From the IMG/VR virus record IMGVR_UViG_3300035698_013589, positions 1 through 52,032 of that record: a stretch of DNA of 52,032 nucleotides. One strand, written 5' to 3'. Below are positions 1 to 52,032 of this stretch, one piece after another. The notes beneath the pieces were generated by a model. That model was not told the origin of the DNA. It saw only the letters and a program-made list of their open reading frames with translations, and made no database searches. The translations under genes and the position numbers were made by a program. This DNA comes from a virus. Its lineage: Duplodnaviria > Heunggongvirae > Uroviricota > Caudoviricetes. Numbering within the stretch: the first letter of the stretch is position 1; every line of letters begins with the position of its first letter.

Positions 1-83
1 ACTCTAACTTGTGCAATTACTAGATAACCTACCATAAGTACGATACCAATTCCAATTGCTCCGATTGATATTTGCATAGACAT
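1..83 (-). CDS. Major capsid-like hairpin protein, copy 3 (5' part only, runs off window edge)
   Basis: Not in ORF track. ATG at 83 reads MSMQISIGAIGIGIVLMVGYLVIAQVR, nearly identical to the two upstream copies; GGAGG Shine-Dalgarno at 93-97 (minus strand). Confidence 0.85.
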   Translation of the reverse strand, partial: MSMQISIGAIGIGIVLMVGYLVIAQVR

Positions 84-177
84 TTTTGGTTGCCTCCTAT
101 TTTGTTTTTTTGTTAATTTAAAACATAAAAAAATTTAAGGGTTTTTATCCCCTGTGTTCCCCGATAAAATCTCAACC

Positions 178-402
178 TTACTTGAAGATATTGATTAGAC
201 CGAATGCTGCTAGAACGATGATACCAACTGCTACTAATCCAAATCCTGCGAAGACAGTAGACTGTGTTGCGTCCATACCTTCTACAGTTTCATTAGATAA
301 TGAGTCTGTTGGGAGTGCTGCTCTAACTTGTGCAATTACTAGATAACCTACCATAAGTACGATACCGATTCCAATTGCTCCGATTGCTATTTGCATAAAC
401 AT
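178..402 (-). CDS. Major capsid-like protein (spindle-shaped-virus-type hydrophobic helical hairpin), copy 2
   Basis: 74 aa, two hydrophobic helices joined by a polar loop with an N-E-T sequon, as in fusellovirus VP1/VP3 and His1 MCP; GGAGG RBS; tandem paralogs. Confidence 0.7.
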   Translation of the reverse strand: MFMQIAIGAIGIGIVLMVGYLVIAQVRAALPTDSLSNETVEGMDATQSTVFAGFGLVAVGIIVLAAFGLINIFK

Positions 403-446
403 TTTTGTTTACCTCCGATTGTTGTTGTATAATCAAATAAATTTAT

Positions 447-671
447 TTATTTGAAGATGTTGATTAGTCCGAATGCTGCTAGTACGATTATTCCTACTGC
501 AATTAATCCAAATCCTGCGAATACAGTTGATTGTGTTGCATCCATTCCTTCAGTAGTTTCATTGCTTAGACTGTCTGTTGGCAGTGCTGCTCTAACTTGT
601 GCGATAACTAAATATCCTACCATTAATACTATTCCGATTCCAATTGCTCCAATTGCTATTTGCATAAACAT
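447..671 (-). CDS. Major capsid-like protein, copy 1
   Basis: 72/74 aa identical to copy 2; GGAGG RBS; directly downstream of a TATA motif at 726-743. Confidence 0.7.
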   Translation of the reverse strand: MFMQIAIGAIGIGIVLMVGYLVIAQVRAALPTDSLSNETTEGMDATQSTVFAGFGLIAVGIIVLAAFGLINIFK

Positions 672-725
672 TTTTTTTTGCCTCCACTGGTGTTATTCAC
701 CATTATACTAATAAATATAGTATTA

Positions 726-743
726 CCATTTATATATATATTT
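726..743 (-). promoter_or_regulatory. Putative late/structural promoter (AAATATATATATAAATGG)
   Basis: Same motif precedes the adhesin, 103-aa, 510-aa and 1146-aa genes. Confidence 0.65.
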
Positions 744-752
744 CTTTTCGCA

Positions 753-50942: not shown

Positions 50943-50945
50943 TAT

Positions 50946-51470
50946 ATGCATAATGTAAGTCTATGTAAAAATTGTTATTGTATGACACACACCCTATTAG
51001 GTTTTTGTGGGAAGTGTAGTTATGATAAAGAAGGAGTTGAGAAAATGGATATTAAAGTAAAAAAACTAAATGACAAAGCCGTGCTTCCAATAAGAGCACA
51101 TCCAACTGATGCAGGATTTGATTTAACTGCAACATCAATGGAAGAAAAACCAGGAATGATTAAGTATGGAACAGGACTTGCTTTTGAGATACCTGTAGGA
51201 TATGTTGGATTAATATTCCCAAGAAGTAGTATAGCAAGCACAGGACTTCTATTATCAAATTGTGTTGGTGTTATTGATAGTGGTTATAGAGGAGAAGTTA
51301 TGGCCAAGTTTAGAATAGTTATAAACAGCGGAAAGAATTTTATGTATGGTGTTGGTGAACGGATTGCACAAATGATTGTTATACCTTACCCTGATGTAAA
51401 ATATACAGAAGTCACTGAATTGTCGCCGACTCCTCGTGGAGATAACGGTTTTGGGAGTACAGGTAAATAG
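50946..51470 (+). CDS. dut: Trimeric dUTPase (with an upstream in-frame Cys-rich segment)
   Basis: All five motifs: AGFDL, PRSS, GVIDSGYRGE, ERIAQ and RGDNGFGSTG; probable internal start at ATG 51045 after AAGGAG. Confidence 0.95.
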   Translation: MHNVSLCKNCYCMTHTLLGFCGKCSYDKEGVEKMDIKVKKLNDKAVLPIRAHPTDAGFDLTATSMEEKPGMIKYGTGLAFEIPVGYVGLIFPRSSIASTGLLLSNCVGVIDSGYRGEVMAKFRIVINSGKNFMYGVGERIAQMIVIPYPDVKYTEVTELSPTPRGDNGFGSTGK

Positions 51471-51489
51471 AAAAATTTATATATTAGTT
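51470..51489 (+). promoter_or_regulatory. BRE/TATA promoter (GAAAAATTTATATATTAGTT)
   Basis: Early-class consensus upstream of the small gene and PCNA. Confidence 0.65.
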
Positions 51490-51534
51490 ATGATTATTTA
51501 ATTACTATATACATATCAAGGAGGATAGGATAAA

Positions 51535-51669
51535 ATGCCAAACATAAATACAACATTATATTTGTCTGACGAAGACTATAATGAAAAATTTTTACCACGG
51601 AAGAAGGAAGTTCTTGAGAAGATGAGAATTTTCATTAGAGAAGAATTAGGAATTGACAAAAAACGATGA
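51535..51669 (+). CDS. 44-aa RHH-like protein
   Basis: Not in track; MPNINTTLYLSDEDYNEKFLPRKKEVLEKMRIFIREELG; AGGAGG RBS. Confidence 0.55.
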   Translation: MPNINTTLYLSDEDYNEKFLPRKKEVLEKMRIFIREELGIDKKR

Positions 51670-51679
51670 GGAGATATAT

Positions 51680-52032
51680 ATGAAAATTAAAACAGCTATA
51701 TTAGAAGAATTTTTAACAAAGACCCGAATGGGAGAAGTCGAAACATGTTTACTACAATTTCAGGAAAAAGGATTGGTTATTTCTGCAATGTCTGTGGCTA
51801 ACTCACATAAAGCAGATTCGTTTCTTAAAGCATCAGCATTTAATGAGTATCAAGCTATTGGTAACATTGGTGTAGATGATTTAAATAACTTAATCAAAGT
51901 GTTCAAAAGATTAGGAACAGAACTTGAGTTTGAAGTTGAAGGTAATTTACTATCAGCTAAAGGCGCAAAAAAACAACTAAAGTTTGAACTTGTTGATGAG
52001 AAATTTATAGAAGCACCAAAAGAAATGCCTGC
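51680..52032 (+). CDS. pcn: PCNA sliding clamp (partial, runs off window edge)
   Basis: Not in track; MKIKTAILEEFL...EKGLVISAMSVANSHKADSFLKASAFNEYQAIGNIGVDDLNNLIKVFKR matches the archaeal PCNA N-terminal pattern (GISMRAMD...L..S.F..Y....IGV....L.KILKR); GAGGAG RBS. Confidence 0.8.
   Translation, partial: MKIKTAILEEFLTKTRMGEVETCLLQFQEKGLVISAMSVANSHKADSFLKASAFNEYQAIGNIGVDDLNNLIKVFKRLGTELEFEVEGNLLSAKGAKKQLKFELVDEKFIEAPKEMP

What the first reader, a model, noticed from the sequence alone, without database searches (positions are those of the whole stretch)
1..52032. Large spindle-shaped-virus-like genome with its own replisome
It has hairpin MCP-like proteins, a morphogenesis-type ATPase, a TM-anchored giant glycoprotein and small membrane proteins (the spindle-virus toolkit). 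It also encodes an MCM-like helicase, AEP primase, PCNA, DEDDh exonuclease, putative SSB, two SF2 helicases and dUTPase. No HK97 capsid, portal or terminase is visible. At >52 kb it exceeds fuselloviruses and His1, so it may be an undescribed family. The host is archaeal but cannot be resolved from sequence alone.
Basis: inference. Interest (0 to 1): 0.7.

Follow-up and report, generated by a model that had tools for sequence, protein, structure and literature searches.

The report
Giant-genome relative of archaeal spindle viruses
This window is the left 45% of a viral genome of at least 116 kb, from an apparently undescribed and widespread lineage that pairs the ATPase and small hydrophobic coat-type proteins of archaeal spindle-shaped viruses with a near-complete DNA replication kit, at genome sizes (82-125 kb) well above any spindle-type virus found in the papers and records searched.

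Summary

- **Size.** The window is bases 1-52032 of a 116,032-bp IMG/VR contig.
- **Relatives.** Two related contigs, of 82,649 and 125,063 bp, carry short direct terminal repeats, so they are probably complete circular genomes. They share the same core genes.
- **ATPase (28582-29685).** It belongs to the ATPase family of SSV1 B251 and His1 ORF16. Its only PHROG hit is phrog_5484 (E 2e-5). A profile-profile comparison with B251 plus ORF16 gives 96% probability (E 1e-9).
- **Coat candidates.** Two tandem 74-aa genes encode two-helix hydrophobic hairpins with a variable loop that bears a glycosylation sequon. This is the same build as SSV1 VP1 and His1 VP21, but no sequence homology could be shown. 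They are the most conserved genes of the lineage.
- **No head-tail genes.** No terminase, portal or HK97 capsid profile matches any of the three genomes.
- **Replication genes.** Confirmed: PCNA, DEDDh exonuclease, dUTPase and two SF2 helicases, plus RFC and a split PolB outside the window. MCM-like helicase and AEP primase are leads only. The SSB call is unsupported.
- **Host.** Promoter form points to an archaeon; the lineage is unknown.
- **Limits.** Virion shape is inferred, not shown.
- **Novelty.** No GenBank virus record matched the three proteins tried, and no paper found describes this lineage.

The parts
178..402 (-). Coat-protein (MCP) candidate, copy 1: 74 aa, two hydrophobic helices joined by a polar loop with an N-E-T sequon
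   Evidence: AF2 model shows helices 2-29 and 37-73, pLDDT 87. 969 metagenomic homologues. Helices nearly invariant, loop hypervariable. 78% and 76% identical in G001 and G002, the most conserved gene of the lineage.
447..671 (-). Coat-protein candidate, copy 2, 97% identical to copy 1
727..743 (-). Late/structural promoter motif AAATATATATATAAATG ahead of the coat-gene pair; GCGAAAAG (BRE-like) lies just upstream
   Evidence: 6 matches in the window against 0.21 expected; upstream sequence read
753..989 (-). 78-aa conserved protein of the structural operon
   Evidence: Homologues at the same position in G001 (48%) and G002 (31%)
993..1304 (-). 103-aa membrane protein with three hydrophobic segments, conserved in all three genomes
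1308..1814 (-). 168-aa protein with N-terminal and C-terminal hydrophobic segments, conserved
1798..17682 (-). 5294-aa surface protein: signal peptide, repeated domains, hydrophobic C-terminal anchor, 131 N-x-S/T sequons
   Evidence: (z 7.2). The C-terminal anchor is shared with the G001 1556-aa and G002 1750-aa proteins. The late promoter lies at 17707-17723.
17722..20070 (-). 782-aa Q/P-rich protein with one Cys and no signal peptide; probably an internal virion or morphogenesis protein
   Evidence: No family hit. Its ends are conserved in the G001 410-aa protein. Sequence read.
20087..20398 (-). 103-aa two-TM protein, conserved in all three genomes (two copies in G002), preceded by a late promoter at 20423-20439
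20461..20763 (-). 100-aa protein with a Gly/Ala-rich hydrophobic stretch and a basic tail
   Evidence: no family hit
20778..25310 (-). 1510-aa protein with no Cys, depleted in sequons, basic C-terminus; probably internal
25318..26850 (-). 510-aa protein of unknown fold, first gene behind the late promoter at 26907-26923
26932..27444 (-). 170-aa conserved core protein (62% in G001, 31% in G002)
   Evidence: no family hit
27452..27877 (-). 141-aa membrane protein
28145..28585 (-). 146-aa protein directly downstream of the ATPase, conserved in G001
28582..29685 (-). P-loop ATPase of the SSV1 B251 / His1 ORF16 family, the spindle-virus core ATPase
   Evidence: Its only PHROG hit is phrog_5484 at E 2.2e-5, covering profile positions 12-218 of 239. 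SSV1 B251 and His1 ORF16 score 5e-101 and 3e-62 on that same PHROG. hhalign A4 vs A5 gives 96.4% probability, E 1.2e-9. The G001 orthologue against His1 ORF16 gives blastp E 1e-5. The best-probability BFVD fold hit is ATV ORF286. An early-type promoter lies at 29838-29850.
29857..31176 (-). SF2 helicase (ResIII + Helicase_C), always next to the ATPase
34170..34845 (.). Divergent control region between the two arms: two outward early promoters (34191-34203 minus strand, 34786-34798 plus strand) and about 10 TGCCATT(T/A/C)TG iterons in both orientations, at the cumulative GC-skew minimum. Candidate replication origin.
35176..37398 (+). 740-aa AAA+ helicase, MCM-like (lead)
   Evidence: Atlas features score 0.93 against MCM clusters, with 9 of the 10 best hits in one family. 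Pfam gives only weak AAA_14/DUF5906. No PDB sequence hit. 31% identical in G001.
38656..39213 (+). DEDDh (RNase_T) exonuclease
   Evidence: Pfam E 7.5e-12
39228..40847 (+). 539-aa AEP-primase-like protein (lead)
   Evidence: phrog_2478 at E 1e-3. Atlas shows AEP-TOTE, RepB_primase and PriCT clusters at 0.92-0.95. 41% identical in G001.
40852..41789 (+). NYN nuclease (40852-41313) and YdjM-family membrane protein (41346-41789)
41830..45270 (+). 1146-aa protein with a GNAT acetyltransferase domain, driven by a late-type promoter (41791-41807) although it lies in the replication arm
47921..48541 (+).
   Evidence: No hit; conserved in G001 and G002
48783..50942 (+). PD-(D/E)XK nuclease fused to an SF2 helicase
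   Evidence: 50% identical in G001
50946..51470 (+). dUTPase
   Evidence: Pfam E 9e-24
51653..52032 (+). PCNA-type sliding clamp; the 243-aa gene runs to 52384, beyond the window
   Evidence: phrog_223 at E 2.9e-7. The best PDB sequence hit is Haloferax PCNA 3hi8 at E 0.005, followed by other PCNAs.

Best explanation
The window is the structural arm plus the start of the replication arm of a large double-stranded DNA virus. The host is probably an uncultivated, AT-rich archaeon. The virus belongs to an undescribed lineage related to the spindle-shaped and other hydrophobic-hairpin-coat archaeal viruses: Fuselloviridae, Halspiviridae and the large ANME-1 spindle viruses.

How it most likely works:

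1. Two gene arms diverge from an iteron-rich control region at about 34.2-34.8 kb. This region is a candidate origin (inferred).
2. An 'early' promoter, AACATTTATATAT, drives the replication genes and the ATPase operon. The replication genes are the MCM-like helicase, AEP-like primase, exonuclease, nuclease-helicase, dUTPase and PCNA, followed outside the window by RFC and a split PolB. The motif sites and family assignments are shown; the timing is inferred.
3. A distinct 'late' promoter, AAATATATATATAAATG, drives the structural units.
4. The tandem 74-aa hairpin proteins are made in bulk. They carry consensus GGAGG ribosome-binding sites. They pack through their near-invariant hydrophobic helices into the coat lattice, with the variable, probably N-glycosylated loop facing outward (inferred by analogy with SSV and His1 coats).
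5. The 5294-aa glycoprotein sits in this layer through its hydrophobic C-terminal anchor and serves as an adhesin (inferred). The anchored proteins of the relatives would do the same through their hairpin anchors.
6. The B251/ORF16-family ATPase, always paired with an SF2 helicase and small membrane proteins, acts in genome handling or morphogenesis. The homology is shown; the role is unknown even in SSV1.

Relatives have probably circular genomes of 82.6 and 125 kb, and one carries a tyrosine integrase.
For: - ATPase homology.
- The ATPase is reported as a core gene detected in all known spindle-shaped viruses (PMC10866085).
- Coat candidate: the model is a two-helix hairpin. It is 74 aa, against 73 aa for mature SSV1 VP1 and His1 VP21, with the same helix-loop(N-x-T)-helix-basic end layout.
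- Coat conservation: invariant helices and a hypervariable loop. It is the most conserved protein among the three genomes.
- Coat paralogy: two or three tandem paralogues per genome, including Cys-rich loop-expanded forms. The wider family includes N-terminally extended forms that recall the VP1 precursor.
- No head-tail profiles: six-frame searches of G000, G001 and G002 found nothing, with portal not tried on G002. The top 25 families listed in each proteome-wide scan included none (Pfam and PHROG for G000 52-116 kb and for G001; G002 not scanned this way).
- Direct terminal repeats of 104 and 87 bp in G001 and G002.
- Shared core and gene order across the three genomes.
- Two promoter classes far above chance, with TATA-like boxes about 25-30 nt before start codons that lack a leader.
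- Sequon enrichment only in secreted proteins.
- PCNA closest to archaeal PCNA.
- Precedent for structural and enzymatic arms, RNA-primed PolB and Que genes in large spindle viruses of ANME-1 (PMC9894754).
Against: - No significant sequence similarity between the 74-aa family and VP1, VP3 or VP21. hhalign probability is about 1%. HMM searches rank His1 VP21 or SSV1 VP1 first, but only at E 0.01-0.04 in a 62-protein set.
- Fold searches with a helical hairpin cannot discriminate.
- Absence of HK97, portal and terminase rests on profile HMMs, which can miss divergent archaeal versions. Many large proteins remain without a fold.
- CheckV rates G001 at 19% and G002 at 73% complete despite their terminal repeats.
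- No virion has been seen.
- The host is unidentified. Contigs carrying the coat gene are binned with unrelated bacteria and one Pacearchaeota MAG.
- Several genes look bacterial or phage-like: class II CCA enzyme, Ro60, YdjM.
Confidence: 0.7

Rival explanations
1. A head-tailed or icosahedral archaeal virus whose capsid, portal and terminase are too divergent for profile HMMs. On this reading the 74-aa hairpins are membrane proteins, such as a holin, an immunity protein or an envelope-associated protein, and not the coat.
For: - Large (about 100 kb) archaeal viruses with near-complete replisomes described so far are tailed (bioRxiv 10.1101/2025.02.15.638363).
- Many proteins of 350-1500 aa here have no assigned fold.
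- CheckV calls the repeat-bearing relatives incomplete.
Against: - There is no match to Terminase_6N or Phage_capsid at E <= 1 in 324 kb of six-frame sequence from three genomes, and none to Phage_portal in the 199 kb of G000 and G001. No head, tail or packaging PHROG appears among the top hits.
- The ATPase matches only the spindle-virus family.
- The 74-aa gene is the most conserved gene, tandemly duplicated, late-promoted, and sits at the end of the operon that encodes the anchored glycoproteins.
Confidence: 0.13
2. A lipid-enveloped or pleomorphic, non-spindle virion, or a bacilliform one. The hairpin protein would be the main membrane or matrix protein, so the virus shares genes with spindle viruses but not their shape.
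For: - The same coat fold builds both spindle and rod-like particles (the discussion in PMC10866085, considers rods).
- A genome of 82-125 kb would need a far larger container than any known SSV-type spindle.
- There are many small membrane proteins and hairpin-anchored glycoproteins.
Against: Nothing here separates shape. No pleolipovirus-type or other envelope-protein family was hit. The ATPase and the coat build point to the spindle assemblage.
Confidence: 0.13
3. Not a virus: a large plasmid or other extrachromosomal element of an archaeon that carries surface-protein genes.
For: There is an integrase, many accessory enzymes and tRNA genes, and no recognised capsid family.
Against: - The ATPase is of the spindle-virus family.
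- There is a dedicated late-promoter regulon for secreted or anchored proteins and an abundant small hydrophobic protein.
- No conjugation or partition machinery appears among the hits, apart from a weak ParB-like stretch.
- The contigs are filed as viral in IMG/VR.
Confidence: 0.04

Closest known systems
Fuselloviridae (SSV1) and Halspiviridae (His1)
   Same: - The ATPase is in the same PHROG family as B251 and ORF16.
- The coat candidate has the same length and helix-loop-helix build, with a glycosylation sequon in the loop.
- Coat genes occur as tandem paralogues (VP1/VP3 in SSV1) and close an operon that also encodes a large terminal or adhesion protein and small membrane proteins.
- One relative has a tyrosine integrase.
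   Different: - The genome is 5-8 times larger: 82-125 kb against 14-15 kb for SSV1 and His1.
- It has its own RNA-primed-type replisome instead of none (SSV1) or a protein-primed PolB (His1).
- Coat sequence similarity is not detectable.
- No other SSV1 or His1 gene is shared at a convincing level.
[quoted passage not shown]
   Same: Genomes split into a structural arm and an enzymatic arm. Both have RNA-primed family B polymerase, Que (7-deazaguanine) genes, more than one coat paralogue, and circular genomes.
   Different: - Those genomes could not be fetched here, so no gene-level comparison was made.
- The largest reported is 72.6 kb, against 82.6, over 116 and 125 kb here.
- The GC content here is 28-33%, and the lineage is seen in many different metagenome projects.
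Bicaudaviridae (ATV and other large tailed spindle viruses)
   Same: Large circular genomes. The best-probability structural neighbour of the ATPase model in BFVD is ATV ORF286 (probability 0.99, E 5e-3, TM 0.34-0.42).
   Different: From general knowledge, not tested here: bicaudaviruses use a different, four-helix-bundle coat protein. No sequence hit to any GenBank archaeal virus was found for the three proteins tried.
Large tailed archaeal viruses with near-complete replisomes (magroviruses; haloarchaeal and nanohaloarchaeal tailed viruses of about 100-110 kb)
   Same: MCM, primase, PolB, PCNA and RFC encoded by the virus; genome size class.
   Different: Those viruses have HK97 capsid, portal and terminase. 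None is detectable here.

Membership tests
Spindle-shaped archaeal virus assemblage (Fuselloviridae/Halspiviridae type) | Small (about 70-90 aa), highly hydrophobic alpha-helical hairpin major capsid protein | tested here: inconclusive
   The architecture is met: 74 aa, two helices, loop sequon, tandem paralogues. Homology is not shown. hhalign probability is about 1%; VP1 or VP21 rank first, but at E 0.01-0.04. Fold searches cannot discriminate.
Spindle-shaped archaeal virus assemblage (Fuselloviridae/Halspiviridae type) | B251/ORF16-type ('DnaA-like') AAA+ ATPase, reported as shared by all known spindle viruses (PMC10866085) | tested here: met
   Its sole PHROG hit is phrog_5484 at E 2.2e-5. 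The same PHROG scores SSV1 B251 at 5e-101 and His1 ORF16 at 3e-62. hhalign gives 96.4% probability, E 1.2e-9.
Spindle-shaped archaeal virus assemblage (Fuselloviridae/Halspiviridae type) | Spindle (lemon) shaped virion | not testable with these tools
   Needs microscopy of particles.
Spindle-shaped archaeal virus assemblage (Fuselloviridae/Halspiviridae type) | No HK97 or jelly-roll capsid, portal or terminase | tested here: met
   There is no match at E <= 1 for Terminase_6N or Phage_capsid in G000, G001 and G002, or for Phage_portal in G000 and G001. No such family appears in the proteome-wide Pfam and PHROG scans. Jelly-roll families were not searched separately.
Fuselloviridae (family proper) | The set of fusellovirus core genes beyond the coat and ATPase (e.g. 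VP4/C792, C166, B277, A82, C84) | tested here: not met
   blastp of all SSV1 proteins against G000 and G001 gives only marginal local hits: C166 at 2e-4 over 61 aa, and the B277 C-terminus at 1e-3. This is not a fusellovirus.
Caudoviricetes (head-tailed viruses) | HK97-fold capsid protein, portal, large terminase | tested here: not met
   Divergent versions cannot be excluded without folding all unassigned proteins.
Archaeal host (as opposed to a bacterial one) | BRE/TATA-type promoters about 25-30 nt before leaderless starts; archaeal-type replication proteins; N-glycosylation sequon bias in secreted proteins | tested here: met
   Promoter motifs occur 6 times against 0.21 expected, and 8 against 0.73. 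Spacing was read. PCNA is closest to Haloferax PCNA. Pth2 is present. Sequon z scores are 7-10 in secreted proteins only. This evidence is indirect and no host genome has been linked.

The most novel reading that the evidence does not exclude
These contigs define a new family-or-higher lineage of archaeal viruses. They would be spindle-type, hairpin-coat viruses that have grown to 82-125 kb, possibly more (one 183-kb contig is on record but could not be read). They carry a near-complete replisome, tRNA arrays and RNA-repair genes, and are spread across many marine, saline and sediment metagenomes.

This would make them by far the largest genomes packaged by this simplest of capsid proteins. 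Their surface proteins would be docked in the coat by coat-like hairpin anchors, including circularly permuted ones.
Probability: 0.5. Interest if true: 0.8.

Novelty: new variant of a known kind. Interest (0 to 1): 0.72.

Why it matters
Spindle-type viruses are known only from archaea. They are built from one tiny hydrophobic protein, and the genomes described so far reach 72.6 kb (PMC9894754).

A widespread lineage of 82-125 kb, with the same ATPase, a coat-like hairpin and its own replisome, would raise several questions:
- How much DNA can such a lattice hold?
- Does genome gigantism with replisome capture arise outside head-tailed and giant eukaryotic viruses?
- Which abundant, uncultivated, AT-rich archaea host these viruses?

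It also supplies ready markers for finding these viruses in metagenomes, where automated tools currently misjudge them. The markers are the 74-aa protein (969 clusters at 90% identity) and the ATPase. CheckV, for example, rates the 82.6-kb repeat-bearing genome at 19% complete.

Tried and rejected
1. **Fold search with the 74-aa model.** Searches in PDB and BFVD returned only generic helical hairpins at E > 0.4, so they say nothing either way.
3. **Complex prediction with four coat copies.** No verdict; the score was 0.00 and the controls were not run. This is not evidence either way.
4. **tblastn against 50,697 GenBank phage and archaeal-virus records.** The coat, ATPase and MCM-like proteins gave no match.
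5. **Fetching other spindle viruses.** Itzamnavirus (OP413839, OP880254) and NSV1 (accession recalled from memory) are not in the collection. Thaspiviridae, Itzamnaviridae, Tepeuviridae and wyrdviruses were therefore not compared directly.
6. **Host from binning.** Contigs with the coat gene sit in MAGs labelled Bacilli, Burkholderiales, Thermotogaceae, Rhodobacter, Clostridia and Pacearchaeota. This looks like binning noise.
7. **Exact-sequence cluster look-up.** It gave no names.
8. **The 183-kb contig.** It is listed for an ATPase homologue but could not be retrieved.
9. **The 510-aa protein.** Neither atlas features nor structure gave a usable match.
10. **The SSB reading of the 206-aa protein.** Nothing was found in Pfam, PHROGs or PDB sequences.
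11. **Positional and size likeness to SSV1.** SSV1 runs C792-B78-C166-VP1-VP3 and this virus runs 782-...-168-103-78-MCP-MCP. It is not backed by sequence similarity, so it is treated as coincidence or analogy.
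Full report
**What the window is**

The window is bases 1-52032 of a single 116,032-bp IMG/VR virus contig. The contig is linear with no end repeats, and CheckV rates it about 70% complete. GC content is 31-36% throughout. Genes form two arms that diverge at about 34.2-34.8 kb. Everything from 178 to 34166 is on the minus strand, and everything from 34845 onward is on the plus strand. The cumulative GC skew turns at the same point. The rest of the contig, 52-116 kb, continues the plus-strand arm with about 140 mostly small genes.

**Checking the listed parts**

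Confirmed:
- Two tandem 74-aa genes (178-402 and 447-671), 97% identical to each other. Each is modelled with good confidence (pLDDT 87) as two long helices joined by a seven-residue loop. Both helices are strongly hydrophobic.
- A 5294-aa protein (1798-17682) with a signal peptide and hydrophobic C-terminal anchor segments. It has 131 N-x-S/T sequons against 78 expected from its composition, z 7.2.
- Small membrane proteins at 993-1304, 1308-1814, 20087-20398 and 27452-27877.
- RNase_T/DEDDh exonuclease, an NYN nuclease, a YdjM-family protein, a PD-(D/E)XK nuclease-SF2 helicase fusion and a second SF2 helicase.
- dUTPase.
- A PCNA-type clamp. It hits phrog_223, and its best PDB sequence matches are Haloferax PCNA and then other PCNAs.

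Leads only:
- The 740-aa protein is called MCM-like only on language-model features. These score 0.93, with nine of the ten best named clusters being MCM. Pfam shows only weak AAA_14/DUF5906.
- The 539-aa protein is AEP-primase-like on a weak PHROG hit and similar features.

Not supported:
- The 206-aa 'SSB' matches nothing. It is nevertheless conserved in the relatives.

Outside the window the contig encodes the RFC clamp loader, a PolB interrupted by an intein, Ro60, a CCA-adding enzyme, two Pth2 copies and one tRNA.

**The ATPase is the firm link to spindle viruses**

- The 367-aa P-loop protein at 28582-29685 has a single PHROG match among 38,880 families. It is phrog_5484, at E 2.2e-5, covering positions 12-218 of the 239-position profile.
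- I then scored the SSV1 B251 and His1 ORF16 proteins against PHROGs. Both belong to that same family, at E 5e-101 and 3e-62.
- A profile of 20 homologues of the window's ATPase aligns to B251 plus ORF16 with 96.4% probability, E 1.2e-9, over 141 columns.
- The orthologue in a related genome hits His1 ORF16 directly in blastp at E 1e-5.
- In BFVD the best-probability neighbour of the AF2 model (pLDDT 67) is ORF286 of Acidianus two-tailed virus, a large spindle virus (probability 0.99, E 5e-3).
- This ATPase is described as the core gene detected in all known spindle-shaped viruses (PMC10866085).
- Its role is not known even in SSV1.
- Here it is driven by the early-type promoter. It always sits beside an SF2 helicase and small membrane proteins.

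**The 74-aa proteins look like spindle-virus coat proteins, but homology is not shown**

Points in favour:
- Read side by side with mature SSV1 VP1 (73 aa) and His1 VP21 (73 aa), they have the same plan. That plan is a hydrophobic helix, a short polar loop with an N-x-T/S sequon, a second hydrophobic helix and a short basic end.
- The family is large, with 969 clusters at 90% identity. A profile search of 1.8 billion representatives found 131 more distant members.
- Across the family both helices are nearly invariant, while the loop is hypervariable and usually keeps a sequon. That pattern fits a packed lattice with an exposed, glycosylated loop.
- It is the most conserved protein among the three related genomes, at 76-78%.
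- Each genome carries two or three tandem paralogues, including Cys-rich loop-expanded forms of 97-98 aa.
- More distant members carry long acidic N-terminal extensions that recall the cleaved VP1 precursor. Others place a circularly permuted hairpin at the C-terminus of large ectodomain proteins.
- The coat genes have consensus GGAGG ribosome-binding sites and lie behind the late promoter.

Points against:
- hhalign against VP21 gives 0.9% probability.
- An HMM of the family ranks His1 VP21 first among all SSV1 and His1 proteins, but only at E 0.009.
- A broader profile ranks VP1 first at about 1% probability.
- Fold searches return only generic hairpins.

The coat assignment therefore rests on architecture, conservation pattern, copy number, genomic position and the lack of any other capsid candidate.

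**Relatives and genome size**

- The coat protein and the ATPase each lead to two further IMG/VR contigs.
- G001 is 82,649 bp with a 104-bp exact direct terminal repeat and 31.8% GC.
- G002 is 125,063 bp with an 87-bp repeat, 27.7% GC and about 17 tRNA genes.
- Repeats of this length at contig ends are what assemblers leave on circular molecules. Both are therefore probably complete, despite CheckV estimates of 19% and 73%.
- All three genomes share a core. It comprises the coat paralogues, three small proteins next to them, giant anchored glycoproteins, a roughly 100-aa two-TM protein, a roughly 170-aa protein, the ATPase (split by an intein in G002), the SF2 helicase, the 206-aa protein, the nuclease-helicase, RFC and PolB. 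Identities are 30-68%.
- In G001 and G002 the coat genes are followed by further secreted, sequon-rich proteins (643, 694 and 1188 aa with a beta-helix, and 623 aa). Several have a two-helix C-terminal anchor. The window's contig ends just past its coat genes, so its counterparts would lie beyond the left end.
- G001 also carries a tyrosine integrase, 7-deazaguanine synthesis genes with a TGT-type transglycosylase, UDG and a ThiF/JAB pair.
- At least 167 JGI metagenome contigs from many projects carry the ATPase.
- An ATPase homologue is on record on a 183-kb contig that I could not retrieve.

**No head-tail or other known capsid genes**

- Six-frame searches with Terminase_6N and Phage_capsid found nothing at E <= 1 in G000, G001 or G002. 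Phage_portal found nothing in G000 or G001. The same searches did ring in control genomes.
- Scans of all proteins of 75-80 aa or more (Pfam and PHROG on G000 52-116 kb and on G001) listed replication, repair, nucleotide and RNA-metabolism families. None of the top 25 families was a head, tail or packaging family.
- The window's own large unknown proteins (510, 782 and 1510 aa) and G001's post-coat proteins have no family.
- This is negative evidence from profiles. Folding all unassigned proteins is the missing control.

**Expression plan and host domain**

- One motif, AAATATATATATAAAYG, occurs six times against 0.21 expected. Five copies are correctly placed: before the coat pair, the giant gene, the 103-aa gene, the 510-aa operon and, unexpectedly, the 1146-aa GNAT protein in the other arm.
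- A second motif, AACATTTATATAT, occurs eight times against 0.73 expected. It sits before the ATPase operon, both innermost genes of the divergent region, the 206-aa gene and PCNA.
- Several of these TATA-like boxes lie 25-30 nt before a start codon with no ribosome-binding site. Internal genes use GGAGG. That is the archaeal pattern of leaderless first genes.
- The promoter form, the PCNA/RFC/Pth2 set, the archaeal-virus-only ATPase family and the sequon bias confined to secreted proteins together make an archaeal host likely.
- Which archaeon remains open. MAG labels of coat-bearing contigs are scattered over unrelated bacteria plus one Pacearchaeota bin.
- In G002 the giant proteins are not enriched in sequons. 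Its host may glycosylate differently.

**Comparison with what is known**

- The lineage is not a fusellovirus or a halspivirus. Beyond the ATPase no SSV1 or His1 gene is convincingly shared, and the genome is five to eight times larger.
- The nearest described design is that of the large spindle viruses of ANME-1 archaea. These have structural and enzymatic arms, RNA-primed PolB, Que genes and dual coat genes. The largest is the incomplete 72.6-kb tepeuvirus PBV144 (PMC9894754).
- Near-complete replisomes at about 100 kb are so far reported for tailed archaeal viruses.
- No GenBank virus record matched the three proteins tried, and I found no paper describing this lineage.
- I therefore rate it a new variant of a known kind. 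The best reading, a large hairpin-coat relative of spindle viruses that infects an archaeon, has a probability of about 0.7. The shape itself is untested.

**Earlier notes of this scan**

- Other agents had already reported the archaeal-type promoter, the split PolB intein, the Ro60/Y-RNA unit and the tRNA-repair genes on the same contig.
- They had also reported intein-rich homologues of this ATPase on other DNA.
- I re-tested only the promoter motifs within this window.

Noticed in passing
window 34300-34800: About ten copies of an iteron, TGCCATT(T/A/C)TG, in both orientations, lie between two outward-facing early promoters at the GC-skew turning point. All seven matches with one mismatch or fewer in the whole window fall within 34325-34651. 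This is a candidate replication origin or master control region.
   Followed up: partly
G000 contig 99172-100227 (L004:10172-11224): A 351-aa protein whose last 70 or so residues are a coat-like hairpin (HMM E about 1e-9). In front of it sits a long acidic, coiled-coil-like extension. The hairpin region also gives a weak blastp hit to the C-terminus of the SSV1 core protein B277 (E 1e-3). Similar N-terminally extended forms are common in the wider family (P0253, P0268 and others).
   Followed up: partly
Proteins P0292, P0297, P0305, P0308, P0313; L116: Large sequon-rich ectodomain proteins end in a circularly permuted copy of the coat hairpin, with helix 2 before helix 1. This suggests spikes docked into the coat lattice by a coat-like anchor. 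One such gene (P0305) lies next to a tyrosine-recombinase fragment on a 2.8-kb contig, so its link to this virus lineage is not established.
   Followed up: partly
G001 (L006:10256-10552) and G002 13335-13628: Each relative has a 97-98-aa coat paralogue whose loop carries a Cys-rich insert of about 24 residues with several sequons. It may be a minor coat variant with a disulphide-bonded surface knob.
   Followed up: no
G002 (L031:18007 to L032:3820): An array of about 17 tRNA genes in the 125-kb relative. The window's own contig has a single tRNA-Thr (L005:5141-5211).
   Followed up: no
G002 44980-57821 versus window 1798-17682 and G001: N-x-S/T sequons are strongly enriched in the secreted giant proteins of G000 and G001 (z 7-10). 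In G002 they are not enriched in the 1750-aa giant protein (z -0.3) and are depleted in the 2510-aa one (z -4.4). This hints that the hosts differ in N-glycosylation.
   Followed up: no
window 41791-45270: The 1146-aa GNAT-domain protein lies in the replication arm but carries the late, structural-type promoter (one mismatch). It may be packaged or act late.
   Followed up: no
ATPase homologues P0121, P0122, P0142, P0193 and others; G002 69646-71785: Many orthologues of the spindle-type ATPase are interrupted by inteins (PF14890), some with HNH domains. In G002 the gene is in two pieces. This gene is an intein hot spot, as earlier notes of this scan also found on other DNA.
   Followed up: no
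G001 whole genome: The 82.6-kb relative carries GTP cyclohydrolase I, QueD-like and QueE-like enzymes and a TGT-type transglycosylase, probably for 7-deazaguanine DNA modification. It also carries UDG, a ThiF/JAB pair and a tyrosine integrase.
   Followed up: no
window 45670-47649: The 659-aa protein has a weak ParB-like N-terminal stretch (phrog_1033, E 2e-4). It could be a partition or nuclease-type ParB-domain protein.
   Followed up: no
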